A stretch of DNA of 64,000 nt from Clostridia bacterium (lineage in GTDB: Bacteria > Bacillota > Clostridia > Christensenellales > UBA1242), in assembly GCA_017467585.1 (NCBI GenBank), contig JAFUSR010000004.1:6624-70623 (forward strand). The letters are read 5' to 3'. A program made the translations under genes and the position numbers. Of this stretch, positions 11,371 to 64,000 are shown piece after piece. Each line of letters opens with the position of its first letter. Position 1 is the stretch's first letter. Below the pieces are notes generated by a model, which had not been told where the DNA came from, ran no database searches, and saw only the letters and a list, made by a program, of their open reading frames with translations.

Positions 11371-11383
11371 AAATTACCTTCTT

Positions 11384-23424: not shown

Positions 23425-23434
23425 AAAACAATAA

Positions 23435-23468: not shown

Positions 23469-23473
23469 TTCTT

Positions 23474-29711: not shown

Positions 29712-29721
29712 GATTTACCTC

Positions 29722-35117: not shown

Positions 35118-35293
35118 TACTAGCCGAAATCGACTAGTATTTTTTTATCATGGTTTAGATAAAATGTTTTTTTGTTGTAGTTATTGTATTAGGCATTGTT
35201 AATATGTTAATAACTCGAATTTAGTTATAAAAAATAACAGATTTATACGTTTAAAATTCACAAAAGTTATGTTTCAATTTTAAACAATGATTG

Positions 35294-40197: not shown

Positions 40198-40320
40198 ATT
40201 GTATAGAAACGCTTTAAAATCAACAAAACATACAAATTAAATAATTTTTAATAAATTGGTAAAATAAAATATTATCGACAAAATTTGATAAAAACAAACA
40301 ATATAACAAATACTATAATC

Positions 40321-41502: not shown

Positions 41503-41511
41503 ACAAATTTT

Positions 41512-41547
41512 AAAGAAACAGACGGTTGTTGACTGTCTGTTTTTTCT
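41512..41547 (+). terminator. Intrinsic terminator after VanW gene
   Basis: AAACAGACGGT...ACTGTCTGTTTTTT. Confidence 0.75.
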
Positions 41548-41582
41548 TGTTAAATCTAGTCGAAACAATGATGTGTAAACGC

Positions 41583-41611
41583 TTGACATTTTTTAGCTAT
41601 TTTGTTAAAAT
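41583..41611 (+). promoter_or_regulatory. sigma-A promoter of giant surface protein gene
   Basis: TTGACA-17-TAAAAT with extended TG. Confidence 0.7.
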
Positions 41612-41842
41612 ATGTATACAAGTTAACCAAAAACTACAAAATAGCAAATAAAAATTTAACAAAAAATGAGTCGAAAAAGCTGTTTTAGTGGTGAATTTTA
41701 GTGGTTGACTTGTGACAAATGCGGTTTTTTATAAAAAAAGCTTTCTCTATGCGAAAAATTCGATAAAAAACTACATTTTTAGTGGTGTAAATAATAAATA
41801 TTTATTATTAAAGCACCCAAACTATAAAAAATAGGTGGAATT

Positions 41843-44800
41843 ATGGACAGAGACACAACAACACAAACTACTTACAGAGATTATTCATCTGATACTAACA
41901 AGAAGGGGATGAGCCGAAGAACGAGATTGCTTCTGATAATTTTCAGCAGTATCTTTTTCTTGGCTGCTGTCATTGTTCCAATTGTTATCTTTACTCGTGG
42001 AACAGATAAGTCTGTAACCGAAGAAAGAAACGTTGGTGACTTTTTGATGCGCTATGTTCTCGAACGAGATCAGAACAATAATGTCGTGGATGAATACTAC
42101 GAGATTATTCGTTATACTGGCTCTAGCAAGAACGTTGTTATTCCTGCGACCGTCGGCAATGTTAAAGTTGTGTCTGTGCTCGACGGAGCATTTAGCTCTT
42201 CAAGTCGTGAATTTAACAAGTCTATCGAAAGCATTACTGTGGCAAAAGACGACAGAAATGACTCATATAACCTTGTTTCGATTGGAAACAGTGCGTTTAA
42301 TGGTTGTGAGGCCCTCTCTACTTTTACGATTCCAGATAGCGTAGAAACTGTCGGCGCTTATGCGTTTACTGGTTCTGGAATTCAAAACCTTGTTATTAAC
42401 GATGCTTCTGTCCTTAAATTTGACAAAAACTCTCTTGTTGATGCAAACAGTTTGACAACTGTTACTATTGTTGGTGCTTCATCTCAAATTAACAGAGACT
42501 TAAACCTTAACAGTGACACCATTGAAAATGTCGATGTTAAAGCTGCGTCTGTTAACTTTGGTGGAGCTGCTCTTACAGGTCTTACAAATTTCCACACCCT
42601 TAGCGTATATAACATCAGCAGTGATAACTTCACTATTGATGCTTCTAACTTTGAAGATTCTAACATCACAACACTTAACATTTATTTTGCGGAAGAACAT
42701 TTAACCAAGAGATTTATGGAAAAGTTCCAAGCCGTTGGTTCTTACATTGAAGAGATTAACTTGGCTGGTGGAATCACTTATCTTGATGCTGGCTCTCTTA
42801 GCTATTTTACAAGACTTAAAAAGGTTGCGTTTACTGATAACGCAACTGTTGATATTTCTGTTCTTGGTGCGCAAACTTATAACTCTCAAATTTTCCAATA
42901 TTATCATTCAACAGACACTGCGTTTGGTGGCTACGATGATGTTGACGGAACAGATTATGTTATGAGATTGATGAACTTAGATAACAGAAACGTTTTGTCT
43001 TCAAGATTTTTGAACTTGTTTAAAACAAGTCAAGTAAAACGCGTTGATCTTCCTGAAAATATCACAGAGGTCGATGATAACGCATTTGTTAGATACATCA
43101 ACTTGACAAACCTAAACTTTGGAAGAAACAGCAAGATTATCAGAATTGGTACCGACGCCTTTGGTAGTACAGATATCGACAGCCAAACAGTTAACATTTC
43201 AGGACTTGTTGTAACAGGACCTGTTTCTGTTGGAAACCTAGATGATGAATCTAGAGTATACACAGAATTTAACACCTCAAGTGGTAGATATGCTGCCCGC
43301 TATTCTTACAATGGTGAAACAACCAAGGGTTCATATAAAGTTACGGTTAACTTAAAAGTTATTCTTGAGCCTGTTAGACCAAATGTTTCTTTCCCAACTG
43401 TTGAGGATATCGGAACAGAAAACAACCAAAGAAATGGTGAATCTTTTGACGTTGCCTACAACGCTTCAATTTTGAATGCTCTTAAACAAAAAGGTTTTAC
43501 ACAAGAAGCATTATTTAAAAACACCGATGCAAGAAATATCAACTGGCATTTGGATGGCTGGTATCTTGATGAGGACTATCAAACAGAACTAACTGATGAT
43601 GTTTTGATGACAGAAGAGTATAGCGGTGGGGTTGTTGTTTACGCAAAATGGAGTGTGCTAAACAATCGTGAATTCAACGTGCTTTATTATTATCAAACAG
43701 TTGACAAGTCTGGCTATGAACAACGTGGTTCAGTAACTGTTGACTCGTTTGCTCCAAACGATTATGTTGATTTGATGACGGTTGATGCCGTTTCTAAAGT
43801 TGAGCCAGGATATACCATAAAGACTGCTGCTGCATCATCTAGCGACACACAATATTCTGTGCTTACTGGATATAACACAATCAAAAATAATAACACACAC
43901 CACTTTGTTATTTACTTCAACAGAAATGAATATTCCATCACATTTAACGACAATGTTCAAGAATATTCAATCAACCCAGCATCATTTGTTGATGGAACAG
44001 ACTTGGAAAAGTATAACAAAATTGTGTTTAAGTCAGACATAACCCTTCCAGTGATGGAAAGAGCTGGTTATGAATTTAAAGGTTGGACAACAACACAAAA
44101 TGGTCAGGTTGTTTACACTGATACACTTTCTTATTCTTACACATCAAATATAACTCTCTATGCTGTTTGGGAGGCTCAAACAGTTGAGGTTCGTGTAGAA
44201 ATTCAAAGAGAAATTGCTCAAACAGAACAAGGCTATGAATTTAGTTCTGGTGGTGGAACTCTTGTGTTTGAAGACCTTTTCTATGCTGATCAATTGATGT
44301 CTGATGTCTATAACCAAATAGACTCTTTAAGACCAGACGCTGTTAAGGGCTATAAATATTACAAGGCAGAAGTTGAAGAGAACGCTAGAGTGTCTGGAGA
44401 CAAGGCAAACAACATTATTGTTGTTAAGTATATTAAGAAATTATATAGTATTAAAGTTAATTTGAATGATCATGGAAGTGCATCTCACGAGACTGCAAAC
44501 CCATATTCTCCTATGACTAAAACATATAAATACCTCGACAGTATTGGTGTTTGGGCAGAGGCTGAAAGACATGGATATAAGTTTAATTCTTGGTTCTATG
44601 ATTCTGCATGCACAAAACAAGTTGGTGTAGACGACCAAATTGGAACAAACGCAAACCTTCCAGAAAATCTTTCTGAATTTACCATTTACGCTGGATGGGA
44701 AAGAGAGAATTTTGTTGTTGCATTCAGCTCTAACTTTGGAACACCAACAGTAACAGACAGAACATATGGCTATGACGACGAAGGAACACTTCCTCCTTCA

Positions 44801-53800: not shown

Positions 53801-56800
53801 ATGTTGCAAGTTCTTGTTGACGCAAGAGTTGCAACAGTTGTGGCTGAACTGGGTGGATCAACCGTTGAACCATCTAGCGTAAGCAATAACATTTATACAT
53901 ATTCTGTTTACTACGAGGCAGAGGTGCTTGTTACTGCCACAACAGCAACAGGATATAGCTTTATTGCTGGCATAACCGGAGCGACATATTCAAACAACGA
54001 TAAACAAGTTGATGTTGAAATTGTAATACTTGATTCTAACAGCATTTCTCTTAGAACAGAAGCTGATACATTCTCAATTAAATATAACAGCAACAGAAGT
54101 GAATCTACAGTTGTTGTTCCTGATAACACAACTGCAATTTATGGATTGTCGTTAACACTTTCAACAAATGTTACAGGAAATGAGACTGTTCTTGGTTATC
54201 ACTTTGCTGGTTGGACCACTGAACAAGATGGCACAGAAATAATTTCTAACAACATTTCAGCTGAAACAGTTCAGGCGTGGTATGCCGAAACTGGAGTAGG
54301 AAAGGGCGGAATTAAGAATGTTTATGCCGTTTGGGAGGCAGATACCTTTACTGTTGAATTTAACACAGACGGTGGAAATAACTTGGATAGCATTACTGCA
54401 ACATATGGTGCAGATTCGTTTAATGCCGAATTGCCAAGCGCAACTAAACATGGTTACAACTTTACTCAATGGTATGCAGAAGCCGAGAAAGAAAACGTGA
54501 TTGCAGACGATGCAGAATCTATAACACGTTTGTATAACAAATATTTTGCGGCAGGCAAAGAAGGAGCCGTAACAATTTATGCCGCATATGAAGAGGCAAC
54601 CTTTAATGTTGGCTTTGATGCAGACCCAGTGTCAGCAGAATATGAAGACAAGACTCTCTCATATGGAAATGGCGCCGAAATTTATGTCGATGCAGAGCAA
54701 AACCCATCACGCCAAGGTTACGACTTTGTTGGCTGGACAGTGAATGGTGAAACTGTTATTTCTGCGCTCGACGCAAGTGATGGCTCAATTGATGCAGAAA
54801 CTGTTAATGCGCTTTATGACTTGTGGGAAGAATATAAAGATGCCGACGACCTTCTTATTCTTGTTGCAAGCTATACAGAACGTTATGATACAGAATATAA
54901 AATCACTGTTTTGGTTGACGACGCCGAAGGCACAAGCAATGTTCAATATCAAAACATAATTATTGCCACAGGCAGAACAAATGCTGAAATCACATTTGAA
55001 ACAGTTAGAGAGGTTGCCGAAAGACAATATCTTGAACTTGCAGACACAGACAAGTTTGTGATTGTTGATGGTTGGATTGATGCTTCTGCAACAATTGCTG
55101 CAGACAATTCTTCTGTTGCACGAATTAGATATCAACGCGCACGCAAGAGTGTTTCAGTTTCTGTTCAAACAGAAAACTTAGATGGAACATATGGCGAAGC
55201 TACAGAACCAGTTAGCACTGGCTCTGCTGCTGGTGAAGGCGGCTCAGTTTCTATCAACGGCAACCTGACTAAATATGGTGCAAAACTTAGTGATATTCTT
55301 TCTGCTAGTGCAAGTTCTGGTTATCAACTAGAAGGATATTACATAAACGGCGAAAGAGTTGTTGCTGGTTACACAATTTCTGGCGACGTTGCGGTTGTTG
55401 CAAGATTTGCCCGCAAAACATATTCAATCACTGTAATTCAACAGTATCAAACAGTTGAAGATGTTTTGTCTGGCACTTATTCAACCGATGCAGAACATGT
55501 TGCAGGAACAAGCGAAGTTACTGCTGAATATAAGTTCGGTGAATTGCTTTCTAATGTTGCTGTTACAAGAATGGTTAACCCTGGCTTTGAATATGTTGGT
55601 GCTCTCACTGCAGAAGGAGCTGCATTTACAAGCGCAGACGTTGTTGTTGACGGAACAAACACAATTATTGCAAGATTTGCAAGACAAACAGTTTCTGCAA
55701 CAATTTCTTATGACGGAACAATGGTTTCTGCCGAAGATATTAAAATTATTGGTTCTAACGCAAGACCAAATGACCATTCAATTGCAATTTCTAACGATGC
55801 GTTTACAATAATCTATGGCGAAGCTTACGTTCTTCAAATCAAAACAATCGCTGGTTATGTTGTTTCTGATGTTACAGTAAATGGTGATTCGGTTACCGTA
55901 ACCGATGTAACACCAGCTGGCGACACAACATTTATTAAATCTTACACAGTGTCAGAAACTGCTGGCACAGGCCTTAATATTGAAATTATTTCTGGGGCAA
56001 ACACAGAAGTAACTTATGTCATTCACTATATGACACAAGGTGTTGATGGTGCATATGTAGACTTTGAACAAGTAACTTACAACAATGGTATTACTGGTCA
56101 AACAAAATTAATTAGCACCTTCACAAGCGCAACCGAAGTTGCAAAAACAGAGGGACTTGCAGAGAAACTTGCAAGCAAAACATATCTTGGTTGGGCAAGA
56201 AATGCAACTTCTGCTGATAACCTCTCAAGAACAACAGCATTTGTTATTGCTGGTGATGGAACAACCGAAATCTATTTATATTACAAACAATTTACATTTA
56301 CAGTAAGCGCTTACGGCGAGGGCACAATCAGCCAAGCTCACCTTTATGGCGCAACTCCAAGAACAATCGAAAGCACAATTTCTGGTGCTAGTTCAATTTC
56401 AACACTATTCTACGAAGATAATGTTGTTCTTACAATCAATGTTGAACATGGTTACAAATTAACAGCTTTGAGCCTCAACGACATTGATGTTGATGTTCAA
56501 AGTGTTGTTGTGGTTCCAGACGGAACAAACACCTATGAACAATATAGATTTACATTCAATGTTGCAGATTATGCAACAGGCCTTGTTGATAACGATATTT
56601 TTGAAATTGTCAACACACTCGAAGCAAACATTTATACTGTTGAATTCTATGCATTTGATGCAGATAGTGAAGCAACACCACTTGCAACACAAAATATCAG
56701 TGTTGGTTCTACAGTAACTCTTACTGCCGGCGAAGACATAACTGGTCTTGCTATTGGAGGTTATGATTTTGCTGGTTGGGCAACCGCTGCAGGAAGCCGC

Positions 56801-59800
56801 ATTGGCAGCTACGCGTATGCTGATGGAGCAGAAGTTATCAACCTTTCACGTGAAGAAAACGGAATTGTTAAGTTGTATGCAAGATATACTGCGCAACAAT
56901 ATTCAGTAACATTTGATTATGACAACGGAACAGAAAACGAAGTTAAATATTATTCTGTTGACGAAACAACAAAAGAAATTGAACTTGGCTCTGCCGCAAA
57001 ATATGGTTACACATTTACCGGTTGGACACTTGTTACCGAAACAGATAGTGCAGAGATTGATTCAACTGGCTTGAAACTTTTGGTATCTGCAAACGCATAT
57101 CAAAACTACGAAGTTAAAGCATTATATACAGAAAACAAGGTTGTTGTAACCTATGATGGAAATTATGAAGGTGCAACAAGCACAACAATTGAATATAACT
57201 TTGATGATAGCCAAACAGACAGCTTCCCAGAATTTGTTCGTGGTGGATACGACTTTGTTGCTTGGCTTGATGACTCAGACGCAATCAATGAATTTAATAT
57301 TCACTCACTTTATGCTCGTGCTCTTGAAAAAGCAGGGGGTGTTGTAACAAACGGAAGAGTTTCCTTGTCGCTCAACGCAGAGTGGGAAGCTCGCAACGAC
57401 ACACCATTTAACATTTCACTTGTGTTCCCTAAGTTTGGAACCCCAGCTACACAAACAATTCAAATTTCTGGCTATGGCACAACAGATTCTGAAATAACCA
57501 TTTCTCTTGTTCAGGGCTTCATAACTGCCAACGCATCAGCAATTGAAACAGAACTTGGCGAACTCATGATTGGCTTTGAAATGGCTGCTGACACAGATTT
57601 TGGCGGCGCAACCATATCTGGAGAAGAAGTTGTCACTGTTGAAGTAGAGTACTTGCGCAAGCAATTCACATTGACACTTGTTGAAAAATATATGAACCTT
57701 TCTGGTGAATATGTTGTTGGAACCGAGGGTGGTTCGTTTGATCAAACACCAAACACTGTTCTCTACAACGCTTCACTCACCGAGCTTTTAGCAAACACAG
57801 CCGCAACAGGATTCACTCTTGCTGGCTTTGTTGACCACAAGGGAACAGAATATGCTGCAAACGCCGACATTCATATGCTTGCAGAAGACACAACAATCTA
57901 TGGATTGTTCGAAAGAAACACACACTCAGTAACATTTGCAAGCATTACACAAACTTATGCTGAGGCTCTTGCTGGAGGATACTCTCAAAACTGCGATGCG
58001 ACAAATGGTGGAACATTTGATGTTGTTGGTTCAGAAACATCAACAATTTCTAACGTGTTCTTTGGCACGCTTATTAGCAGCTTATATACCTATGAAGCTC
58101 ACTATGGCTTTGAATTTGCCGGCCTTTACGATGGCGAAACAAGACTTGCAGACGATGCAACTGTTGTTGATGCCGACAAGACCTACCAAATCAGATTTAA
58201 CAGACTTGTTATTGTTGTAAACGTTAACTACGACAGTGATTATATTAAGACTGTTACCATCACCGGTGATGGTGTTCAAGACCACACAGATGGCGGAAAC
58301 CAAGGTTCTCGCGCAAGAATTGGTTCTGGAATTTCTAGATTCTCTTCAGATGCAACAATGGCTGTTGCTAAGTTTGATGTTGCTTATGGAACAAGCGCAA
58401 CAATTACAATTGTTACACACAGCGGTTATCAACTTGAAAGCTTGAGCTTGAACGGCGTTCTTGTTAACCCAGACGAAATTCACGAAACTGGCGACTATCT
58501 TCAATATACTTACACTTACACATTTGATAACTTATATATTGACCTTGTTATTAACGCAAGCACAAAATCTTATGAATATACACCATATAAGATTTATGTT
58601 TATGAGCAACAACTTAATGGAACATATATTGAAACAATACACAAAGTTGTTGACGGGGAAGATGAATACATCGCTGAATATTACGAACTTGTTGGTCCAA
58701 CAGACTATAACGTAGTCATCAGCACATTGCAACAATATTCAGCTGCAAGGCCTGGCTATCACTTTGTTGGTTGGAAGTATACTGACAGTGCAACAGTGTT
58801 GACAAATATCAACAATGATGCCTCTGGTTCGTTCTCAATTAAAGGAAATGGCACATCGGTTGCTCAATTGTTCTTTGATAGAGATATTTATGATGTGACA
58901 TTTACTTATGCTGAAGATGCTTTGGCAGGAGTTTCTAATCCTCAAATTTCTGGCGAATATGGTGTGACTGCTTCTACAGTTATGTTTGGTGCAGCAGTTA
59001 CATTCTCTGCTACAGTTGCAGCAGGATATACACTGGGCTCAATTACTCCAAACTCAAGAGAACAAGTTGTTGCCTATGAAAACGGAAAAGCAGAATTTGT
59101 TGTTGAAACACTTGCTGCTGGTGCAACAAGCTATGTAATTCAAATTAACGCAACAGCAAACAAATATAATGTTTATTATCATTCGTTCGACCAAACAGCT
59201 TCAACAGAGGCTGGCAACTATGTTGCTCGTGATGAGTTTACTTATGCAAGAGCTCAAAACTTAAAAGCTTACAGCGAAATGCAAGCCGAGCTCGAAATTG
59301 ATGGATATGTGTTTAATGGTTGGGTAAATGCTGCTGATCACACAGCAACATCTAAACTTCTTGAAAGAACATATGCTGACGAACAATCAGTTGTTAGTCT
59401 TTCAACTGGCGAAGCTGTTCATTTGTGGGCAGTTTACCTTCCAAATTCTTACACGGTAACATATGTTTATGACAATGGAACAGCAAATCTTGTTGAAACA
59501 TATCAAACATCAGAAGACGACAGAACAATCAATTTGACCGCTCCAACAAAATATGGTTACACATTTGCTAACTGGACTCTTGCTGATGGCGACACAACTG
59601 CTTCAGTTGAAGGCTTGGTTCTCACAATCAACAGAGACACTGACGACAACCACACACTCACAGCAAACTACTTGGCAAACAAGGTTGTTGTGACCTATGA
59701 TGCAAGTTCTAAAAATGGTGTTGCTGGAACAGTTTCTCCTGTAAGCAAGGAATACACTTACGACAGCGCAGATGAAGAATCTTTCCCAACAGCAGCAATT

Positions 59801-62800
59801 GATGGTTACGATTTCAACGGTTGGGATGTGACTGTAGATGAAGTTACAACACTTTTAACCGATCTTGTTATTAACGACTTATACGACTACGCAATTGCTA
59901 GTGGTGCAACAGTAACAAACGGCAAAGTTGCTCTTACACTGGTTGCAAACTACACTGCAAGAACAGACACAAAATATAAAATTCAAGTTAAACTTCAAGA
60001 CTTAGATGTCCTTGAAACTGCAGAAACATATACTTTGGCTGCAGAAGTAGACGGCGAGGGAACAACCGACACGGATGTTACATATGCTAATGTTCTCAAC
60101 TTTGTTCTTGCTGATGAAGATGCCGCTGGCATGCTTACAGGATTTACTGTTGTTTCTGCAGGGGCATTTGCTGAAGACAACGCAAACCTCAACATTGCGG
60201 GCAACGGATCAACTGTTGTTGTTCTTAGATACACAAGAAACACATATACACTCACAATTGTTAACACAACAATGGGTCTAGATGGCGAATATGTTGAAAG
60301 CGACGAAGGCGGAATTCTTCCTTCGTTGGATGGGGAAACAACAAGACCTCTTACAATTCCATATGATGCAGTTTTGACAATTCTTGACGCTTCTCAAGGT
60401 GATGCTGAACCAGGATTCACATACAGAGGAATCTTTGATGCAGAAGGAACAGAATATACAGCTTCTAGCAAGATGCCAGCTAGAGACTTGACTGTTTATG
60501 CAAGATTCGAAAGAGATAAGTATACAATTACATTTGAAGGAAAAACACAAAGCGTTTCTGCGGCAGAGACTTCTACTTATGACATTAATGTTTCTGCAAC
60601 CGAAGGCGGTGAACTTTCTGTTTCAACAGTAAGCGATGTTTATTTTGGAACAATGGTTTATGATTTGGTTGAAATTACAACCTTTACTGGCTACACATAT
60701 GAAGGATTGTTTGACGAAGATGGGGATCTTGTTGCAAGTGATGCAACAATCACCGGCGAGACAACATATGTTGCAAGATTTACAAGAAACAAGATTTCAG
60801 TTTCTGTTTCTTATAACGCAAACTATATTACAGCTTCAACTGTTGATATTCTTGTTTTAGGATTGTCAACAAAAGACGGCAGTGTGTTTAAAGTTCCTTA
60901 TGGAGCAGAAGCAACACTTGTGTTTACAACTGTTTCTGGTTATATTTTGGATTCTGTTAAATTTAACGGAACCGATGAAACCATTGCAAATTCAGAAGTA
61001 ACTCCTAGCGCAAACAACTTGGTTTATGATTATGCTCATGAATTTGTAAACAACTATACCGAACTTGCAATTAACATCTTAACAAAGGGATATGAACATA
61101 CTCCATATAAAGTATACGTTTATGAACAACAATTAGATGGCTCATATTTGCAAGTAGACATTGACCAAACAACAGAGGGAACAACCGACAGCTCAGTTAT
61201 TGTAAGTTCTCTCGCAAAATATGGCGTTGCACACACAGGATTCCACTTTGCTGGTTGGAATTTGACGGGCGCAACAGCTTCTAGTGCTACATATAATTCA
61301 GACGCTCAAGGCACGTTCTTGATTTCTGGTGATGGCGAAAGATGCGTTTACTTATATTTCAACAGAGATGTTTATAACATTACATTCTCTTATAACGCCG
61401 CTGCTACAATCAGTGTGTCTAACCCTGTTCTTGCAGCAACAGCAGGATTGACTCAAGTTGATGGTGCATATCAAGTTATGTATGGAACAACATTGTCACT
61501 TACTGCAACTGTTTCTAGAGGATATACAATCACACAAATCAACCCTAATGCTCAAGGCGAAATTGATTATAACGCAGAGGGAACACAATTTGTTGTTTCA
61601 ACTCTTGCAAGTGGTGCAAATAACTATAACATTTTGATTGAGGCTCAGGCTAACACATATAATGTTAACTATCACAAATTTAACACAGCAGCTGTTCTTG
61701 AAACAGATGCAGTGGCATATGATCAAGATTATACACTTAGAGCATATGCTTCGTTTGTTGATGGAACAACAGAAATTCTTGCAATCGGTGGCTACACATT
61801 TGCAGGTTGGACAAGAGACAACTCTGGCTCTAAACTCACAGCAGCAACATATGGTGATGCTGAATCTGTTAAGAATCTTGGATATCAAGAAGGAGAAAGC
61901 GTAGACCTTTATCCTGTTTACACGGCCGGTTCATACACAATTACATATGTCTATAACAATGGTGCTGCAAATGCAGAAACAACTTATGCCGTTCAAGAAT
62001 CAGACAGAATAATCACTCTTGAAACACCAGTTAAATATGGTTACACATTCACAGAGTGGACTGCAGACAACACCACAGGTCTTACAATTTCTGGAAATCA
62101 AATTACTGTTGCTGCAGATCAATATGCAAACAGAATAATCACTGCAAATTATTATAAAAACACAGTTACTGTTACTTATGATGCAGGCTCTGGTAACATT
62201 GGTGGAAATCAAACAAAAGTTGTGACATATACTTATGACTCACAAACTCCATCAGATGAATTCCCAGTTGCAACTTACGATGGTTATATCTTTGTTGATT
62301 GGTCAGTAACTGTTGGTGGAGAAGCTAAGCACGAAACTTCTCTCAACATTAACAGACTCTATGACTATGCAATTTCTAATGGTGCAACAATAACAAATAG
62401 AAATGTTAATATCACACTTGTTGCTGTTTGGATACCAGATCCTAACACAGAATATACAATCAACGCTGTTCTTGCTGGTGTTGATCAAACTGTTGTTGAA
62501 CAAACAAAAACAACAACTGGTAAAGGTTTGACAGACTCAGACGTTGCTTATGCTGATGTTGTTGCCTTTGTTCAAGAGAACTTGGCTAGTGACATTGTTG
62601 GCTTTGAATTTGAATCACAATCAGCATTTGAAGCAAACAACACAAACAGAAACATTAATGGTAACAAGTCTACCGTTGTTACAATTCACCTTACAAGAAA
62701 GAGTTATACACTTACTGTAACCAACATGACAATGGGCCTTGATGGTGCATATACACAAAGCATTGTTGGTGGACAAGTAAATGGCTCTAATGGAGAAACA

Positions 62801-64000
62801 CAAAAACAATTCACAGTAACCTATGGAGCACTGCTTGCAGACCTCGTTGCAACCAACAACCCAGGATTTAAGGCAGCAGTATTTACTGATGGAACAACAA
62901 CATATACCTCAGCAAGCAGAATGCCAGCAGGCGCTCTCAACTTAGCGGCAAGATTCGAAAGAGAAAAATATACAATTACATTTACAAGAATTTCTCAAAC
63001 TGTTGCAGAAACAGGAACAACATCGTTCACAAAACAATGTGTAGACACAGTTTCTGCTCAAGAACCAGTTCTTGTTGGTGGTACAATTTCTGTAACTGAG
63101 GTTGCAAACGTTTATTATGGAACAAACGTTAAAAACCTTGTTGCTGTTGAAGCATACGACGGATTTACATTCGTTGGTCTTTGGGATGGCAGCGATTACA
63201 TAACAGATTCAACAACAACTCCTGCAGAAAACAAGACATATGTTGCAAGATTCAGCAGAAAATCTATTGCGACAAGTGTTGGATATGATTCAGCTCACTT
63301 TAGCTCAGTAACAATCAAATTAGATGGCGAAACATCTAACCTTTCTAGCACCGACACAACCGTGGGAACAAAAGTAACAAAAGCCTTCAATATTCCTTAT
63401 GGTGCAAGAGCAACAATAACAATTGTTACACAAAGTGGTTATGAATTAAATCAACTTAAATTTAACGACACAGTTATTTCTAGCTCAAGCATAATTGAAA
63501 CAGTAGAGAACTTGGTATATACCTATACCTATACCTTTACTAATGCTCACCTTGATCTTGTTGTGGATATTTCAGGAAAAGCCCATGCAACAACACCTTA
63601 TACTATAACTGTTCACAAGCAAAATCTTGACGGAACCTATACAAACGAAACAGCAGTAGAACACAATGGTCCTACAGGCTCAGCTGTTGCAATTAATGCT
63701 CTTAGCGAATACACCGCTCCAGCAGGCTACTTCTTCGTTGGTTGGAAAGAAACAATCAGTGATGAACTTAATGCTGACGCAACAGATTCGTTCATTATAA
63801 ATGGTTATGGCACATCAACAGCTCATCTCTATTTCAACAGACAAGTTTATGCAGTAAGCTTCTCTTATAACGATGCCGCTGCAATCAGTGTAACAAACCC
63901 AACTCTTGCTGTTGGAACAGGTGTTACAAAAATTGAAAACACATTCTATGTTACATATGGTGCAACAGTTGCGTTCTCTGCAACAACCAGAGCAGGATAT
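41843..64000 (+). CDS. Giant repetitive surface protein (>=7386 aa, runs off the window): N-terminal TM anchor, BspA-type LRR region, many InlB B-repeat-like modules
   Basis: ATG 41843 with AGGTGG RBS; reads MDRDTTT...RRTRLLLIIFSSIFFLAAVIVPIVIF...YTGSSKNVVIPATVG; recurring GYxFxGW...LYAxW; same frame gives ATVAFSATTRAGY at 63962-64000; the ORF track lists no terminated ORF in this frame, consistent with no stop. Confidence 0.92.
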   Translation, partial: MDRDTTTQTTYRDYSSDTNKKGMSRRTRLLLIIFSSIFFLAAVIVPIVIFTRGTDKSVTEERNVGDFLMRYVLERDQNNNVVDEYYEIIRYTGSSKNVVIPATVGNVKVVSVLDGAFSSSSREFNKSIESITVAKDDRNDSYNLVSIGNSAFNGCEALSTFTIPDSVETVGAYAFTGSGIQNLVINDASVLKFDKNSLVDANSLTTVTIVGASSQINRDLNLNSDTIENVDVKAASVNFGGAALTGLTNFHTLSVYNISSDNFTIDASNFEDSNITTLNIYFAEEHLTKRFMEKFQAVGSYIEEINLAGGITYLDAGSLSYFTRLKKVAFTDNATVDISVLGAQTYNSQIFQYYHSTDTAFGGYDDVDGTDYVMRLMNLDNRNVLSSRFLNLFKTSQVKRVDLPENITEVDDNAFVRYINLTNLNFGRNSKIIRIGTDAFGSTDIDSQTVNISGLVVTGPVSVGNLDDESRVYTEFNTSSGRYAARYSYNGETTKGSYKVTVNLKVILEPVRPNVSFPTVEDIGTENNQRNGESFDVAYNASILNALKQKGFTQEALFKNTDARNINWHLDGWYLDEDYQTELTDDVLMTEEYSGGVVVYAKWSVLNNREFNVLYYYQTVDKSGYEQRGSVTVDSFAPNDYVDLMTVDAVSKVEPGYTIKTAAASSSDTQYSVLTGYNTIKNNNTHHFVIYFNRNEYSITFNDNVQEYSINPASFVDGTDLEKYNKIVFKSDITLPVMERAGYEFKGWTTTQNGQVVYTDTLSYSYTSNITLYAVWEAQTVEVRVEIQREIAQTEQGYEFSSGGGTLVFEDLFYADQLMSDVYNQIDSLRPDAVKGYKYYKAEVEENARVSGDKANNIIVVKYIKKLYSIKVNLNDHGSASHETANPYSPMTKTYKYLDSIGVWAEAERHGYKFNSWFYDSACTKQVGVDDQIGTNANLPENLSEFTIYAGWERENFVVAFSSNFGTPTVTDRTYGYDDEGTLPPSFTRSGYSFVGWSLSETGEVEYVFDGTKISYVDVNRLYEDYLLHKVDDKLNMYAQWKANKYNFRFHSNTESESTSNASIVLNETPLNMNIFERPGYNLVGYNSREDGTGVSIKTSEELYNYILTHLDEYAEAQLLSLYTEWEARDDTKYRINIKLQTLNPESYEDANAIIIQTGTTDTVVDSSDVLELISSNYGTYVNGFSYERMESNNQFKIAGDETLEINVYYQRRSIKVKVLVHEDSVNCVIVGLEGEHVTYDDVEDQYLVVFGSEYTITAVPVDGYVFDAWKVDSVTVGTTENLHFVVDGVDDITYVANVISKRWTVSYDGNGATEGEVASTYLTYNVIGNLAENAFVKHGYTFKGWSEDADSVFGVDDEHIYSNALAVETVNELYAITHGESLQLYAIWQANSFVITLTEKEDDVDAEATIDVLYDGSAVLPDSEEISDFIKHGYTLVAWKLSEETEFAPAYQLTVDEINALYDIYEESEEPKAVKLFARYEANSFALTYTAGTGVGANKTVVAYYDDNEFVLETAATANFAKTGYTFDKWTYNNGTTDVEVSGSGTTLVNGLYDYVTENNLSGLTLVANWTANHYIVKFVGVKAVLDDGSQTLSELTLLDDVLSDTEVQYHAATGTEDAYYYIECVYDQTLKLAKNYYKLGEEYNGESAYKFSAWRNRTTLLTYAAETEGLKNLTAEADGVVEFETVWQQGSTEYRFRAWLEQLDGSYVEVDINDENYLKYYTSYISGYFTTDETINNISVVTDQLVVPGFNYAGEYYTNQENNELKVTESTLLITLKYQRDVYSVVIDDQNGSIELETTDGLGVRLIDENQYEIKFGAILNASAEAKTGYLVRGYVVNGEVIPSSDTVYTITDEYNYGEATISLDVDPIEFVVEYFDGDNSLLSVDYSYDSGANLYIAPKVGYSFSGWKYTKGGSDLDIVYNALENAAFEVDRDIINELFARAGYDEETEKYVSKLYAGYEAIEYKVFFDPAEGSIRGEHQQTLVTVMYGEEYNISTYISEFYRKGYHIINFVAVNSNEGEIKFDSTNGDSLAEKAKTSNYTFINLTSISGATVTVSPVWEADTFAVVYKANQGSGADVEELWQYETTEGIEFYDGHTFAHEGYTLIGWSVSPDATQATYVIGEDATEVTVAIVADLYELYLASDNEQAVLYAVWRANKYKVYYLAQEHAGASTTVDDVVVDPVGFEKDDNGYYIEYTYDQEYVFADNFYILEGYNFVGWLFDEQTYIAGDVLSNLTSAADGVVEIYTIWQAKTFAVEYNSNKPEANNGEVEGQIENGLATFDASFVVSNEQYSLFGYTFGGFAEEGETTALGEVSAAGVNQWFRDLYNEETGDADNKVLYAIWAANQVEVSYNANTGSYASTVTQRTITYSYDQQDARYIANPTKQGYTFVGYNVSAEAVVADYIVPATGEFVQEEVNRIYAYASEQTENPAPYEITLYAIWQANSYTITFDENTPAYATVSQTAESAEVVFDQSLEGLYVARANGYTFVGYYTDSAAGDRLFNQTGELVASVDGYTDASANWIHADDATVYARYEINNYNLTVHIDEHFDAATLVVKVDNQIVSPESVENGNYIYTIEFHKTAEISLSTIAGYTFAANAVVNDGLQALEFETNTNSQITSLTTPLSYVVDATENEVQNNIEFNSLAILYEITINTNGNVANAVVNGGEISVSHDGDTWKFNDYYGNVANIYITTADGYYISAATGLDVANVIKEDNTYSKITEDFTISYVASQNIINLTIVAYYYQINIDAGAQNAKIAIKYEVNGEQITSESANSAVVYAEYNAKTLRYKVENEYYLVKEIITTYAGYTANSVVDQLDETLVYVSADGEKLNTTLINSWSKVSNEATNAVVRYTPNADTIYTVKFMKKVLGEDSFVESGLTMQFHGETDSEITYQMIINELQASGASFPTITGFDRDTDDQTKFAALNGVVTINGDGSSEVEINYVREFYALNIVVYSQDAFGNYIKDSVSGGTITTAAQTYEYEYLVELTSIANTGFQEAVWYKSFDPDTKTGELAENFEITAQTNLVAVFSRRIYSLSLVTMWQEIADAVNGSYVVYTLGDLVSGSGDYRFGQAVTITNLDKTGFTFEGFYADELMQGDAVSVVGYTMPSENTVLYAKYTRQSFVVTLEADRGIASANLSETIGVTEVEEGVSYDVFYGVTFDVLFEVRTGYAETVITLSNDIENPIEIEDGVNSYEIAYNYLQDITISIETVAQDVGYVVEVYLQNMTSTDNNNFVNNYTKFGADQRVSAYTDQTVTISEILELFESAITGSTYYAYSINGASEILVSAGQNDSFVVAGEGTDVVKLYTIRNVYRVEVAERGDLGGVGSLNIAIAEGENLGYIVESGEGYAEVRYGSELTITIVLKRGYKFDETALVYEGLADATHNVTVESDVQTALCSTGRVTADGTISINSVAKQYTIEFNANSNPVIDRIVTGEVESQTATIGQELKLNKNQFETDGFTFLGWSEISMSTIAIFADEDTVDVDNIFGFYTSVGENGTLTLYAVWQAKTIAVEYYNQDGEKVAEDEFTFSRDAVAAEAANRVGFEFNNWVLSVDETFVLGSGEELSSTKVNRLYRLLVEKNQTKAVFNASYTGLNIDINIQQYVLKLNGINVEDKSSAASYQHISSEVVYNETKADEDFIYNNIKNSSQIVLEGFTPYAYQAKDGSFKTFASAGSNKFNPNLDGSEILIIYYTRNAYTITVVPNNGLSTNPTFDAYYGSNLIANINAQNFGFVKNGYSLVGYKYNGEEVAQEATVIAEPMEVSAEWEADTFTVSISANGGVLVDSEAQTSFVATFDNNDGLTFDTGLFERVGYIFVGYGNTPDAAFDSVFTSANKATVNSWYNEANVGKDGIKVIYAIWSARYFNLSIASGDENSSSAATIAFTYGSTTLSLDEVANKLYVRYGSNKIYFGTNLVDQRNAANEIDSIEATRHGYTIAGFADNGTFYINESENLLLANYAQTEDLSLVAEWIAETRMLQVLVDARVATVVAELGGSTVEPSSVSNNIYTYSVYYEAEVLVTATTATGYSFIAGITGATYSNNDKQVDVEIVILDSNSISLRTEADTFSIKYNSNRSESTVVVPDNTTAIYGLSLTLSTNVTGNETVLGYHFAGWTTEQDGTEIISNNISAETVQAWYAETGVGKGGIKNVYAVWEADTFTVEFNTDGGNNLDSITATYGADSFNAELPSATKHGYNFTQWYAEAEKENVIADDAESITRLYNKYFAAGKEGAVTIYAAYEEATFNVGFDADPVSAEYEDKTLSYGNGAEIYVDAEQNPSRQGYDFVGWTVNGETVISALDASDGSIDAETVNALYDLWEEYKDADDLLILVASYTERYDTEYKITVLVDDAEGTSNVQYQNIIIATGRTNAEITFETVREVAERQYLELADTDKFVIVDGWIDASATIAADNSSVARIRYQRARKSVSVSVQTENLDGTYGEATEPVSTGSAAGEGGSVSINGNLTKYGAKLSDILSASASSGYQLEGYYINGERVVAGYTISGDVAVVARFARKTYSITVIQQYQTVEDVLSGTYSTDAEHVAGTSEVTAEYKFGELLSNVAVTRMVNPGFEYVGALTAEGAAFTSADVVVDGTNTIIARFARQTVSATISYDGTMVSAEDIKIIGSNARPNDHSIAISNDAFTIIYGEAYVLQIKTIAGYVVSDVTVNGDSVTVTDVTPAGDTTFIKSYTVSETAGTGLNIEIISGANTEVTYVIHYMTQGVDGAYVDFEQVTYNNGITGQTKLISTFTSATEVAKTEGLAEKLASKTYLGWARNATSADNLSRTTAFVIAGDGTTEIYLYYKQFTFTVSAYGEGTISQAHLYGATPRTIESTISGASSISTLFYEDNVVLTINVEHGYKLTALSLNDIDVDVQSVVVVPDGTNTYEQYRFTFNVADYATGLVDNDIFEIVNTLEANIYTVEFYAFDADSEATPLATQNISVGSTVTLTAGEDITGLAIGGYDFAGWATAAGSRIGSYAYADGAEVINLSREENGIVKLYARYTAQQYSVTFDYDNGTENEVKYYSVDETTKEIELGSAAKYGYTFTGWTLVTETDSAEIDSTGLKLLVSANAYQNYEVKALYTENKVVVTYDGNYEGATSTTIEYNFDDSQTDSFPEFVRGGYDFVAWLDDSDAINEFNIHSLYARALEKAGGVVTNGRVSLSLNAEWEARNDTPFNISLVFPKFGTPATQTIQISGYGTTDSEITISLVQGFITANASAIETELGELMIGFEMAADTDFGGATISGEEVVTVEVEYLRKQFTLTLVEKYMNLSGEYVVGTEGGSFDQTPNTVLYNASLTELLANTAATGFTLAGFVDHKGTEYAANADIHMLAEDTTIYGLFERNTHSVTFASITQTYAEALAGGYSQNCDATNGGTFDVVGSETSTISNVFFGTLISSLYTYEAHYGFEFAGLYDGETRLADDATVVDADKTYQIRFNRLVIVVNVNYDSDYIKTVTITGDGVQDHTDGGNQGSRARIGSGISRFSSDATMAVAKFDVAYGTSATITIVTHSGYQLESLSLNGVLVNPDEIHETGDYLQYTYTYTFDNLYIDLVINASTKSYEYTPYKIYVYEQQLNGTYIETIHKVVDGEDEYIAEYYELVGPTDYNVVISTLQQYSAARPGYHFVGWKYTDSATVLTNINNDASGSFSIKGNGTSVAQLFFDRDIYDVTFTYAEDALAGVSNPQISGEYGVTASTVMFGAAVTFSATVAAGYTLGSITPNSREQVVAYENGKAEFVVETLAAGATSYVIQINATANKYNVYYHSFDQTASTEAGNYVARDEFTYARAQNLKAYSEMQAELEIDGYVFNGWVNAADHTATSKLLERTYADEQSVVSLSTGEAVHLWAVYLPNSYTVTYVYDNGTANLVETYQTSEDDRTINLTAPTKYGYTFANWTLADGDTTASVEGLVLTINRDTDDNHTLTANYLANKVVVTYDASSKNGVAGTVSPVSKEYTYDSADEESFPTAAIDGYDFNGWDVTVDEVTTLLTDLVINDLYDYAIASGATVTNGKVALTLVANYTARTDTKYKIQVKLQDLDVLETAETYTLAAEVDGEGTTDTDVTYANVLNFVLADEDAAGMLTGFTVVSAGAFAEDNANLNIAGNGSTVVVLRYTRNTYTLTIVNTTMGLDGEYVESDEGGILPSLDGETTRPLTIPYDAVLTILDASQGDAEPGFTYRGIFDAEGTEYTASSKMPARDLTVYARFERDKYTITFEGKTQSVSAAETSTYDINVSATEGGELSVSTVSDVYFGTMVYDLVEITTFTGYTYEGLFDEDGDLVASDATITGETTYVARFTRNKISVSVSYNANYITASTVDILVLGLSTKDGSVFKVPYGAEATLVFTTVSGYILDSVKFNGTDETIANSEVTPSANNLVYDYAHEFVNNYTELAINILTKGYEHTPYKVYVYEQQLDGSYLQVDIDQTTEGTTDSSVIVSSLAKYGVAHTGFHFAGWNLTGATASSATYNSDAQGTFLISGDGERCVYLYFNRDVYNITFSYNAAATISVSNPVLAATAGLTQVDGAYQVMYGTTLSLTATVSRGYTITQINPNAQGEIDYNAEGTQFVVSTLASGANNYNILIEAQANTYNVNYHKFNTAAVLETDAVAYDQDYTLRAYASFVDGTTEILAIGGYTFAGWTRDNSGSKLTAATYGDAESVKNLGYQEGESVDLYPVYTAGSYTITYVYNNGAANAETTYAVQESDRIITLETPVKYGYTFTEWTADNTTGLTISGNQITVAADQYANRIITANYYKNTVTVTYDAGSGNIGGNQTKVVTYTYDSQTPSDEFPVATYDGYIFVDWSVTVGGEAKHETSLNINRLYDYAISNGATITNRNVNITLVAVWIPDPNTEYTINAVLAGVDQTVVEQTKTTTGKGLTDSDVAYADVVAFVQENLASDIVGFEFESQSAFEANNTNRNINGNKSTVVTIHLTRKSYTLTVTNMTMGLDGAYTQSIVGGQVNGSNGETQKQFTVTYGALLADLVATNNPGFKAAVFTDGTTTYTSASRMPAGALNLAARFEREKYTITFTRISQTVAETGTTSFTKQCVDTVSAQEPVLVGGTISVTEVANVYYGTNVKNLVAVEAYDGFTFVGLWDGSDYITDSTTTPAENKTYVARFSRKSIATSVGYDSAHFSSVTIKLDGETSNLSSTDTTVGTKVTKAFNIPYGARATITIVTQSGYELNQLKFNDTVISSSSIIETVENLVYTYTYTFTNAHLDLVVDISGKAHATTPYTITVHKQNLDGTYTNETAVEHNGPTGSAVAINALSEYTAPAGYFFVGWKETISDELNADATDSFIINGYGTSTAHLYFNRQVYAVSFSYNDAAAISVTNPTLAVGTGVTKIENTFYVTYGATVAFSATTRAGY
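54446..64000 (+). repeat. Diverged ~2.5-kb tandem super-repeats inside the giant gene
   Basis: AAA(C/T)ATGGTTACA anchor at 54446, 56999, 59549, 62033; second anchor near 58581, 61101, 63594. Confidence 0.75.

What the first reader, a model, noticed from the sequence alone, without database searches (positions are those of the whole stretch)
41843..64000. Giant (>22 kb, >=7386 aa) surface protein gene missed by the ORF track
Seen: one frame with sensible protein at both ends and at points sampled between, occupying a third of the window and not finished. Short cytoplasmic N-terminus, basic residues, one TM helix, BspA-like LRRs (~42.1-43.2 kb), then a long chain of beta-rich GYxFxGW/LYAxW modules, strongly D/E/T/V/Y-rich. 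Known: BspA LRRs and InlB B-repeats occur in host- or cell-binding surface proteins. Unusual: the LRR region sits next to the N-terminal hydrophobic segment, so either that segment is cleaved and the anchor lies beyond the window, or the protein is N-anchored with an unseen distal C-terminal domain. Inference: a very long adhesin or surface filament.
Basis: partly seen in the sequence, partly recalled or inferred. Interest (0 to 1): 0.75.

Follow-up and report, generated by a model that had tools for sequence, protein, structure and literature searches.

The report
Giant LRR-headed surface fibre gene
A real, unfinished gene of more than 7,386 codons in a spore-forming Clostridia-type bacterium encodes a huge acidic surface protein, with a leucine-rich-repeat head followed by about 70 small beta-rich stalk domains; giant proteins of this kind have already been noted in gut Clostridia.

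Summary
Frame +2 from 41843 to 64000 is open for 7,386 codons with no stop. The other five frames carry 225-796 stops. The gene was "missed" only because an ORF list without open ends skips ORFs that run off the window.

The protein has a 28-residue basic N-terminal tail, one hydrophobic segment (aa 29-50), BspA-type LRR_5 repeats (aa ~140-450), and then about 67 recognisable Flg_new/InlB-B-repeat-like domains. Fifteen of these form a ~95-aa subtype with no Pfam or PDB match.

It is not a repeat-collapse artefact. There are no DNA tandem repeats, and adjacent domains are at most 29% identical. An independent Lachnospiraceae MAG contig carries a collinear homologue over aa 1749-5964.

The best reading is a megadalton fibrillar adhesin-like surface protein. 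Clostridial giants with Listeria-Bacteroides repeats and LRRs are already in print, so this is a new member of a known kind, of moderate interest.

The parts
41513..41545 (+). Terminator-like hairpin plus U-run after the upstream VanW/G5 gene (40285-41502)
   Evidence: RNA fold of 41495-41560: -18.7 kcal/mol, z = -3.55, 2 of 200 shuffles fold as well. The consensus scan did not call it.
41583..41611 (+). Sigma-70/sigma-A type promoter-like site, TTGACA-17-TAAAAT with an extended TG
   Evidence: 11 of 12 hexamer matches. It is the only site found in 41300-42000, where shuffles give a mean of 2.1, so this is a consensus match and not proof.
41612..41842 (+). Roughly 230-nt leader, if the promoter is real; it holds three copies of TTTTAGTGGTG/T at 41683, 41696 and 41777
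   Evidence: Fold of 41612-41860: z = -5.07, 0 of 200 shuffles as good. No meaningful Rfam match at E <= 1. Motif positions.
41833..41838 (+). Shine-Dalgarno AGGTGG, 4 nt before the ATG
   Evidence: Read from the sequence.
41843..64000 (+). Giant ORF, 7386 codons, unfinished at the window end
   Evidence: GC3 of 0.25 lies within the 0.23-0.37 range of eight neighbouring genes.
41843..41992 (+). N-terminal tail (aa 1-28, ending KKGMSRRTR) and the single hydrophobic segment (aa 29-50): an export signal or a signal-anchor
   Evidence: Kyte-Doolittle scan: the only 19-residue windows above 1.8 in all 7386 aa start at aa 26-37. There is no A-x-A site; T-R-G at aa 51-53 is a possible weak cleavage site by my reading. 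No signal-peptide predictor was available.
42260..43192 (+). BspA-type leucine-rich repeat (LRR_5) region, aa ~140-450: the putative binding head
   Evidence: Pfam LRR_5 at 80.1 bits against a 27.7 cut-off. Sub-pieces mapped. PDB relatives: 4fs7 (6e-18), 4gt6 (2e-11), 4h09, 6mlx, 4cp6.
43640..64000 (+). Array of about 67 recognisable small beta-rich domains (aa ~600-7386): 55 Flg_new-like 'type A' envelopes and 15 'type B' envelopes, 3 of them coincident
   Evidence: HMMs built from the protein itself. 87.8% of aa 600-7386 is covered, leaving five uncovered stretches of 78-211 aa. The type A profile hits the InlB B-repeat 2y5p at E = 1.7e-4.
54182..64000 (+). Four successive ~830-855-aa super-repeat blocks of about 10 domains each: 54182-56746, 56747-59290, 59291-61777 and 61778-64000 (the last cut by the window end)
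   Evidence: Self-BLAST, alignments A1 and A2, pairwise identities of 38-43% among the last three, and a tree.

Best explanation
The gene encodes a megadalton cell-surface fibre of the fibrillar adhesin-like kind in a spore-forming, low-GC Bacillota (Clostridia-type) bacterium.

Shown: it is a real, native-looking gene with its own promoter-like site and ribosome-binding site. The product has one N-terminal hydrophobic export or anchor segment, a BspA-type LRR module directly after it, and then an unbroken chain of about 70 InlB-B-repeat-like domains of ~85-95 aa with almost no linkers. It is uniformly acidic and nearly free of cysteine. The domain order is conserved over more than 4,200 residues in a distant relative.

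Inferred: the chain is exported through Sec by the N-terminal segment. The beta-grasp-type domains form a long stalk. At 3-4 nm per domain, which is my estimate and was not computed here, the part in the window would span roughly 0.2-0.3 micrometres. The LRR module is the ligand-binding head.

My preferred orientation, at about 55:30 over the reverse, follows the usual Firmicutes layout: the N-terminal segment serves export, the LRR head sits at the distal tip, and an anchor lies beyond the window end. That anchor could be a C-terminal membrane helix, as in the 931-aa Flg_new protein of the same window, or a wall-binding module.

The gene appears to have grown by duplication of ~2.5-kb, ten-domain blocks at its 3' side.
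For: A real gene: 0 stops in 7386 codons against 225-796 in the other frames; Shine-Dalgarno and ATG; the same start in an independent database gene call; GC3 like the neighbours.

Not an assembly artefact: Tandem Repeats Finder returned 0 rows; the longest direct DNA repeats are <= 67 nt at <= 84% identity; 21 adjacent type A pairs average 20.0% identity, maximum 28.9%. Locus L025, from contig CAYTHL010000003.1 of an uncultured Lachnospiraceae MAG, is a single frame of 4361 codons open at both ends. It is collinear with aa 1749-5964 at 28% identity over 4546 columns and 1154 bits, with 19-43% identity in every 100-aa window.

Domains: LRR_5, Flg_new, Flg_new_2 and TIGR02543 above their cut-offs; PDB BspA-type LRR structures; InlB B-repeat.

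Surface location: a single N-terminal hydrophobic segment with basic residues before it; pI 4.05-4.99 in all fifteen 500-aa windows; 8 Cys in 7386 residues.

Literature: the fibrillar adhesin-like definition, and the N-terminal adhesive domain with C-terminal anchor in Firmicutes (PMC8286594); Flg_new as a stalk domain (PMC9210967); the B-repeat as a beta-grasp-like fold (PMC8900821); beta-grasp domains acting as spacer or projection ('periscope') domains (10.1101/2024.12.31.630911); Clostridial giants with these domains (10.1101/2023.11.21.568195).

Growth by block duplication: in the tree of six blocks, window 4114-4968 pairs with L025 2487-3333 (100/100), and L025 3334-4201 is sister to the window's three last blocks (99/99).
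Against: No function was tested, and no binding partner is known for this LRR module.

The C-terminus, and therefore any anchor, is outside the window. It could not be recovered: searches found no longer version.

The hydrophobic segment is 22 residues long with no A-x-A site, which fits an uncleaved signal-anchor at least as well as a cleaved signal peptide. That favours the reverse orientation.

Sequence features suggest N-terminal anchoring in some proteins of this broad class. Loci L014 and L030 have lipobox N-termini and no C-terminal hydrophobic segment. L011 has a cytoplasmic zinc-ribbon-like N-terminus and a single mid-protein hydrophobic segment, and it ends in LRRs. Only 3 of 18 complete Flg_new ORFs in the fetched loci have a C-terminal hydrophobic segment, and 0 of 18 have a sortase motif. 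No sortase gene is among the window's ORFs scanned.

The fold of the domains and the rod shape are inferred from family membership only. Fifteen 'type B' domains have no Pfam hit (the 8 submitted) and no PDB match (profile of 14 of them), and their link to Flg_new is weak (hhalign probability 16%).
Confidence: 0.6

Rival explanations
1. The same fibre in the reverse orientation. The N-terminal segment is an uncleaved signal-anchor (type II), so the LRR module sits at the membrane under or in the wall as a base. The stalk then carries an unseen C-terminal domain outward as the working end.
For: The hydrophobic segment is 22 residues long, with six basic residues just before it and no A-x-A site. 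N-terminal anchoring is suggested by sequence features in relatives of this broad class: lipobox N-termini in L014 and L030 with no C-terminal hydrophobic segment, and L011 with a cytoplasmic zinc-ribbon-like N-terminus, one mid-protein hydrophobic segment, and LRRs at its C-terminus. The neighbouring 819-aa LRR_5 protein has an N-terminal hydrophobic segment and no C-terminal one. No sortase is in the window.
Against: Only about 90 residues separate the helix from the LRRs, so the one module with a known ligand-binding role would be buried under the wall. [quoted passage not shown] The 931-aa Flg_new protein in the same window has a signal peptide plus a C-terminal membrane helix.
Confidence: 0.28
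2. Not an adhesin proper but a secreted or loosely attached scaffold or 'fibrillar enzyme'. The Flg_new chain would space or present a catalytic or carbohydrate-binding domain lying beyond the window, or would build extracellular matrix.
For: Flg_new stalks occur on a potential fibrillar enzyme (PMC9210967). The type A profile also hits an exo-alpha-sialidase chain in the PDB (10qi, E = 0.0066). Precomputed Pfam lists of distant relatives include peptidase S8 (PF00082) and dockerin or cohesin.
Against: No catalytic or carbohydrate-binding family reaches significance in the 7386 residues seen. The collinear relative L025 also shows only Flg_new and Flg_new_2.
Confidence: 0.08
3. A contact-dependent delivery filament with a variable C-terminal toxin domain beyond the window, working like CdiA or other polymorphic toxin systems.
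For: Only the general resemblance, which I recall from memory: a very long filament with an unseen C-terminus.
Against: No toxin-associated, pretoxin, RHS, LXG or haemagglutinin-repeat family was found. No immunity-like small gene can be seen because the 3' end is missing. Flg_new stalks are not known to me in such systems.
Confidence: 0.03
4. An assembly artefact or decaying pseudogene: a chimeric or collapsed repeat region that happens to stay open.
For: The protein database holds only a 2087-aa piece of it, ending where the window has no stop. The reason for this is not explained.
Against: There are 0 stops in 7386 codons, no near-identical DNA repeats, an independent collinear homologue over aa 1749-5964, and native codon usage.
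Confidence: 0.01

Closest known systems
Giant Clostridia proteins of 10,000-30,000 aa from mammalian gut metagenomes, carrying Listeria-Bacteroides repeat domains and leucine-rich repeats (West-Roberts et al., bioRxiv 10.1101/2023.11.21.568195, section 12 read in full)
   Same: The class Clostridia, giant size, the same two domain families, and a proposed role in adhesion to other cells' surfaces.
   Different: That paper gives no anatomy for these proteins in the text I read, and its supplements could not be opened. Here the length is only a lower bound (>= 7386 aa). Whether this very protein is in their set is unknown.
Fibrillar adhesin-like proteins of Firmicutes (Monzon et al., PMC8286594 and PMC9210967; passages read)
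   Same: A terminal adhesive-type domain (LRR), a long stalk of repeated small domains (Flg_new is named a stalk domain), and an N-terminal position of the head.
   Different: It is far longer than typical members. No anchor has been seen. Adhesion has not been shown.
Listeria internalin B (InlB) and its B-repeat (PDB 2y5p, 1m9s; PMC8900821 passages)
   Same: An LRR module followed by a B-repeat-type domain. The type A domain profile hits the InlB B-repeat (E = 1.7e-4).
   Different: The LRRs are of the BspA/LRR_5 type, not the internalin type. There is no internalin cap or inter-repeat domain. It has about 70 repeats instead of one, and no GW modules have been seen.
Periscope proteins (SasG, Rib, Sgo0707; PMC9704523 passages)
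   Same: A rod-like stalk of tandem small domains, including beta-grasp folds, that projects a head from a Gram-positive surface.
   Different: The defining near-identity of repeats at the DNA level is absent: adjacent domains are <= 28.9% identical and there are no DNA tandem repeats. Length switching by recombination is therefore not expected.
Giant1-5 proteins of Apilactobacillus kunkeei (PMC12863079; abstract and section 12 read)
   Same: Extracellular proteins of 3,000-8,000 aa in a Gram-positive bacterium, with a binding-type domain at the N-terminus, an elongated body, and no dedicated secretion genes nearby.
   Different: Those have a beta-solenoid head, mostly alpha-helical repeat rods, and C-terminal SH3b-like wall attachment with no membrane helices. 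This one has an LRR head, a beta-domain stalk, an N-terminal hydrophobic segment, and an unknown C-terminus.
BspA-type LRR surface proteins (Pfam LRR_5; solved examples 4fs7, 4gt6, 4h09, 6mlx TpLRR, 4cp6 PcpA)
   Same: The N-terminal module matches this family by Pfam and by PDB sequence search.
   Different: Identity to the nearest database relatives is low: <= 31-37% over <= 18% of the N-terminal 620 aa for the top hits. The neighbouring LRR_5 gene is not a close paralogue (22% identity, E = 9e-4).

Membership tests
Pfam LRR_5 (BspA-type leucine-rich repeat) | Match to the family HMM above the gathering score | tested here: met
   80.1 bits against a 27.7 cut-off for aa 1-1500. Sub-pieces score 42.0 and 30.5 bits. 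PDB LRR_5-type structures are hit, best 4fs7 at E = 6.2e-18.
Pfam Flg_new / Flg_new_2 and NCBIfam TIGR02543 (Listeria-Bacteroides repeat, InlB B-repeat) | Match to the family HMMs above the curated cut-offs | tested here: met
   Flg_new scores 112, 72.7, 73.7 and 30.5 bits in four of five pieces (cut-off 27), and 22.9 bits in the fifth. Flg_new_2 scores 51.6-59.1 bits in four of five pieces (cut-off 23.6). TIGR02543 matches in four of five pieces.
Pfam Flg_new (InlB B-repeat) | Beta-grasp-like fold of the domain | not tested
Only the sequence-profile match to 2y5p is available (E = 1.7e-4).
Fibrillar adhesin-like proteins (definition in PMC8286594) | Extracellular | tested here: inconclusive
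   There is one N-terminal hydrophobic segment with basic residues before it, the protein is acidic throughout, and it has 8 Cys. No signal-peptide or topology predictor and no proteomics were available.
Fibrillar adhesin-like proteins (definition in PMC8286594) | Adhesive region, usually at a terminus | tested here: inconclusive
   An LRR_5 module is present at aa ~140-450, at the N-terminus. Binding was not tested.
Fibrillar adhesin-like proteins (definition in PMC8286594) | Stalk-like region of repeated domains forming a rod | tested here: inconclusive
   About 67 tandem domains lie with envelope gaps of mostly -9 to +12 residues. The rod shape was not modelled.
Fibrillar adhesin-like proteins (definition in PMC8286594) | Surface-anchoring motif or domain | not testable with these tools
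   The C-terminus lies beyond the window, and no longer version was found. The N-terminal helix is the only candidate seen.
Periscope proteins (PMC9704523) | Tandem repeats of very high identity at the coding-sequence level, allowing variation in repeat number | tested here: not met
   Tandem Repeats Finder returned 0 rows. Direct DNA repeats are <= 67 nt at <= 84% identity. The 630 type A pairs average 18.6% identity, and the 21 adjacent pairs reach at most 28.9%.
Listeria internalins | Internalin-type N-terminal cap, LRR and inter-repeat (Ig-like) region | tested here: not met
   Pfam finds LRR_5 (plus weak LRR_8 below the cut-off) and no internalin cap or LRR-adjacent family at E <= 0.01.
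Sortase-anchored LPXTG surface proteins | C-terminal LPXTG-type motif, hydrophobic stretch and basic tail | not testable with these tools
   The C-terminus is not in the window. No sortase family was found among the window ORFs scanned.
Omnitrophota-type giant proteins (10.1101/2023.11.21.568195) | Numerous transmembrane regions and divergent SecA DEAD helicase domains | tested here: not met
   There is one hydrophobic segment in 7386 aa and no SecA family hit. This applies to the part seen.

The most novel reading that the evidence does not exclude
The protein is the visible two-thirds or less of a fibre of more than 10,000 aa that is held in the membrane by its N-terminus. It would define, together with the Lachnospiraceae homologue, a distinct family of fixed-architecture megadalton fibres. 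In that family the order of more than 50 non-identical domains has been kept since the two lineages split. A ~95-aa 'type B' module would be a domain family not yet in Pfam. An unseen distal C-terminal module would do the real work a quarter of a micrometre from the cell. Expression would be governed by the structured ~230-nt leader with its three TTTTAGTGGTG boxes.
Probability: 0.12. Interest if true: 0.6.

Novelty: new member of a known kind. Interest (0 to 1): 0.35.

Why it matters
Genes like this take up a large share of a small genome's coding budget. Here, more than 22 kb goes to one protein. They are routinely broken or dropped by assemblers, gene callers and ORF lists. The protein database used here holds only a 2087-aa stump of this one.

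A conserved domain order across roughly 4,200 residues at only 28% identity argues that the whole length is under selection, not just the head. If the head's ligand were found, it would say how an uncultured spore-former attaches in its habitat.

For annotation practice, the lesson is simple: ORFs that run off a window or contig end must be listed.

Tried and rejected
**Finding the rest of the gene**
- A genome-contig scan with aa 6900-7386 matched 63 pattern stretches, but none was a relative.
- A protein search with aa 1-620 among proteins of 4062-12926 aa gave 11 distant hits, none the same protein.
Redone with the 620-aa piece, it searched lengths 1086-3100 aa and found only the 2087-aa stump P0013.
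- A search with aa 6600-7386 among proteins of 4062-12926 aa gave 2 unrelated hits.
- An HMMER search of 1.84 billion representatives with aa 6187-7386 gave 2097 hits at E <= 1e-3. The best was 30% identical and there was no self piece.
- Lengths of 3100-4062 aa and above 12926 aa were never searched for the N-terminus.

**Relatives**
- Of 280 fetched proteins, the best single BLAST alignment to the giant scored 218 bits.
- Of the 10 largest other locus ORFs, 7 gave at most 93 bits and 3 gave nothing at E <= 1e-10.
- tblastn against plasmids gave 2 weak hits.

**Structure**

**Type B domain**
- No Pfam hit at E <= 1 makes sense, and there is no PDB hit below E = 0.34.
- hhalign against type A gave only a boundary artefact or a weak in-register match at 16% probability.
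- The uncovered stretch aa 2643-3056 and the region aa 460-693 gave no PDB match.

**Other checks**
- A riboswitch in the leader was looked for, and no credible Rfam match appeared.
- Local paralogy of the LRR head with the 819-aa neighbour was rejected (22% identity).
- Hydrophobic-end statistics on 129 LRR_5 homologues (54 N-terminal only, 1 C-terminal only, 2 both, 72 none) said nothing about anchoring.
- No complex prediction was run, because no binding claim is made.
- Taxonomy beyond 'spore-forming Bacillota' could not be fixed.
Full report

Yes. With open ends allowed, the ORF list gives 41843..64000 on the + strand: 7386 codons, an ATG start and no stop before the window ends. The translation has no stop. 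Over the same 22,158 bases the other five frames have 249, 796, 225, 453 and 509 stops, so the open frame is far beyond chance.

An AGGTGG Shine-Dalgarno sequence sits 4 nt before the ATG. A database gene call, P0013, uses the same start. Third-position GC is 0.25, inside the 0.23-0.37 range of eight other genes in the window, so the gene looks native.

The ORF disappears from the list when open-ended ORFs are not requested.

**2. Is it an assembly artefact?**

Very unlikely, for three reasons.
- Tandem Repeats Finder finds nothing in the gene.
- The longest direct DNA repeats are 67 nt at 70% identity or shorter ones at <= 84%.
- At protein level, 630 pairs of type A domains average 18.6% identity, and the 21 adjacent pairs average 20.0% with a maximum of 28.9%.

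Independent support comes from locus L025. This is bases 1-13084 of the 50,662-bp contig CAYTHL010000003.1, from an uncultured Lachnospiraceae MAG. It is one reading frame of 4361 codons, open at both locus ends. It aligns in a single collinear BLAST segment with residues 1749-5964 of the window protein: 28% identity over 4546 columns, 1154 bits. Identity is 19-43% in every 100-residue window, with few gaps.

No other sequence came close. The best single alignment among 280 fetched database proteins scored 218 bits. The ten largest other locus ORFs gave at most 93 bits.

**3. Anatomy**

- *N-terminus.* Residues 1-28 are polar and end in KKGMSRRTR. Residues 29-50 are the only hydrophobic stretch in the 7386 residues.
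- *LRR head.* LRR_5 (BspA-type) matches fall at aa 142-196, 203-281 (weak) and 390-450. The region hits solved BspA-type LRR proteins: 4fs7 (E = 6e-18), 4gt6, 4h09, 6mlx and 4cp6.
- *Domain array.* From about aa 600 the rest is an array of small domains. HMMs built from the protein itself find 55 Flg_new-like 'type A' envelopes and 15 strong 'type B' envelopes of ~95 aa. Three of these coincide, giving about 67 distinct domains. They cover 87.8% of aa 600-7386, and five uncovered stretches of 78-211 aa could hold a few more. Envelope gaps are mostly -9 to +12 residues, so there are practically no linkers.
- *Family assignment.* Pfam puts Flg_new and Flg_new_2 above cut-off in four of five pieces. 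NCBIfam TIGR02543 does the same. The type A profile hits the InlB B-repeat (2y5p, E = 1.7e-4).
- *Type B.* The type B consensus is TxYxI...QxLdGxY...GxTDxxV...GF...FxIxGDGs...LyY. It has no Pfam match that makes sense at E <= 1 and no PDB match. Its alignment to type A is in register but weak (probability 16%). It occurs in only 7 of 283 fetched proteins, against 165 of 283 for type A. I take it to be a divergent B-repeat relative, but this is not shown.
- *Bulk properties.* The part in the window weighs 810.7 kDa, has pI 4.2, and is acidic in all fifteen 500-residue windows. It has 8 cysteines.

**4. Internal history**

From about aa 4114 the protein is built of ~830-855-aa blocks of about ten domains each. 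The last three blocks are 38-43% identical to each other. They are 32-33% identical to L025's block 3334-4201 and 22-26% identical to the earlier blocks.

In a maximum-likelihood tree of the six blocks, window 4114-4968 pairs with L025 2487-3333 (100/100), and L025 3334-4201 is sister to the window's three last blocks (99/99). The first block duplication therefore predates the split of the two lineages. The triplication came after it, or was homogenised by gene conversion. The caveats are that there are only six rows, the root is a midpoint root, and L025 is cut by its contig end.

**5. Surroundings**

The window is ordinary chromosome from a spore-forming Bacillota. It carries YabQ, RecD2, Spo0A, FtsH, YyaC, ParB, ParA, rubrerythrin, two ABC exporters, SpoIID, a CCA/poly(A)-polymerase family enzyme and a VanW/G5 protein. 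There is no sortase, accessory Sec system, or type-specific secretion gene.

Two other surface-type genes are present.
- An 819-aa LRR_5 protein at 36266-38725 has only an N-terminal hydrophobic segment. It is not a close paralogue of the giant's head.
- A 931-aa Flg_new protein at 13377-16172 (-) has a signal peptide and a C-terminal membrane helix.

The upstream VanW gene ends in a terminator-like hairpin. A near-consensus promoter-like site at 41583-41611 would give a ~230-nt leader. That leader folds unusually well (z = -5.07) and matches no Rfam family.

**6. How it most likely works**

The shown facts are the export or anchor segment, the LRR module, the linker-less chain of B-repeat-type domains, the acidic low-cysteine composition, and the conservation of domain order. 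These fit the published properties of fibrillar adhesin-like proteins (PMC8286594, passages).
- Flg_new is explicitly treated as a stalk domain (PMC9210967, passages).
- The B-repeat is a beta-grasp-like fold (PMC8900821, passages).
- Beta-grasp domains are described as spacers that project functional domains from the cell (10.1101/2024.12.31.630911, passages).
- Flg_new-rich proteins are considered gut adhesin-like proteins (PMC9723798, passages).

I infer a Sec-exported fibre. If each domain adds 3-4 nm, which is my estimate and was not computed, the visible part would reach 0.2-0.3 micrometres.

Orientation is the open point.
- For 'head at the tip, anchor at the unseen C-terminus' speak the Firmicutes norm, the 931-aa neighbour, and the fact that a buried LRR head would make little sense.
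- For 'N-anchored' speak the long hydrophobic segment without an A-x-A site, the N-anchor-type features (lipoboxes; a cytoplasmic zinc-ribbon-like N-terminus) seen in L014, L030 and L011, and the lack of a sortase gene in the window.

I put these at about 55% and 30%.

**7. Comparison with what is known**

West-Roberts et al. (10.1101/2023.11.21.568195, section 12 read in full) already note Clostridial proteins of 10,000-30,000 aa from mammalian gut metagenomes, with Listeria-Bacteroides repeats and leucine-rich repeats, and suggest adhesion. The kind is therefore known.

This protein is not a Periscope protein, because the repeats are not near-identical (definition in PMC9704523). It is not an internalin, because the LRR type is wrong and there is no cap or inter-repeat region. 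It is not an Omnitrophota-type giant, because it has one hydrophobic segment and no SecA domain.

It resembles the A. kunkeei Giants in plan, but not in folds or attachment (PMC12863079). A full-text search for papers holding both 'Flg_new' and 'LRR_5' found none. That says little, since most authors use other names.

**8. What stayed open**

The stop codon and C-terminus were not found. The protein database holds only a 2087-aa piece identical to the N-terminus, on a 157,643-bp contig. That piece ends at window base 48103, where the window has no stop, and I cannot explain this.

No structure could be predicted. No cluster look-up or Atlas search was possible. The metagenome and viral contig collections and bioRxiv supplements were closed. 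The organism is placed only as a spore-forming Bacillota, and the nearest relative of the gene is in a Lachnospiraceae MAG.

**9. Verdict**

This is a new member of a known kind. Interest is moderate (0.35): a well-preserved example of a megadalton Flg_new fibre with a conserved domain order, a possible new domain subtype and a structured leader, but nothing that overturns expectations.

Noticed in passing
window 41612-41842: The putative ~230-nt leader of the giant gene folds much better than shuffles (z = -5.07, 0 of 200 as good). It holds three copies of TTTTAGTGGTG/T within 105 nt, at 41683, 41696 and 41777. Window-wide the motif is not enriched (4 matches against 2.5 expected). No Rfam family fits. 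It may be a regulatory leader or a set of protein-binding boxes.
   Followed up: partly
window 41843-48103: The protein database holds a 2087-aa protein (P0013, on a 157,643-bp contig) identical to residues 1-2087 of the ORF. It ends where the window has no stop, no N and no long repeat. Either another assembly's contig ends there, or a gene caller cut the gene. This is unexplained.
   Followed up: partly
window 13377-16172 (-): A second Flg_new/TIGR02543 surface protein of 931 aa, with an N-terminal signal peptide-like segment and a C-terminal hydrophobic helix plus a basic tail. It shows that C-terminal membrane anchoring of Flg_new proteins occurs in this organism.
   Followed up: partly
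window 36266-38725 (+): An 819-aa BspA-type LRR_5 protein (195 bits) with only an N-terminal hydrophobic segment, two genes upstream of the giant gene. It is only 22% identical to the giant's head.
   Followed up: yes
window 28800-36000: Cumulative GC skew has its minimum at about 30-36 kb, beside parB (28800-29711) and parA (29722-30525). Most larger ORFs to the left are on the - strand and those to the right are on the + strand. This looks like a replication-origin-proximal region, with the giant gene on the leading strand about 10 kb away. No dnaA was seen in the window.
   Followed up: no
window 12474-13121 (-): A CatA-like O-acetyltransferase, family 3 (413.8 bits against a cut-off of 275), next to a GNAT/YoaP-like acetyltransferase at 11384-12127.
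   Followed up: no
L014 5576-16867, L030 3314-9883, L012 6494-20965: Flg_new proteins of 2186 to more than 4824 aa also occur in Acholeplasmataceae and Izemoplasmatales MAGs. L014 and L030 start with lipobox-type signals (…LVSCG…) and have no C-terminal hydrophobic segment. By sequence features, N-terminal anchoring of such giants would exist in lineages that I recall as wall-less.
   Followed up: partly
window 18634-24031: A GGDEF diguanylate cyclase (18634-19470), a GT4 glycosyltransferase (19625-20827), a flippase-like membrane protein (20885-22081) and a GtrA-like protein (23474-24031, - strand) lie about 18-23 kb upstream. A link to regulation or glycosylation of surface proteins is conceivable but was not examined.
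   Followed up: no
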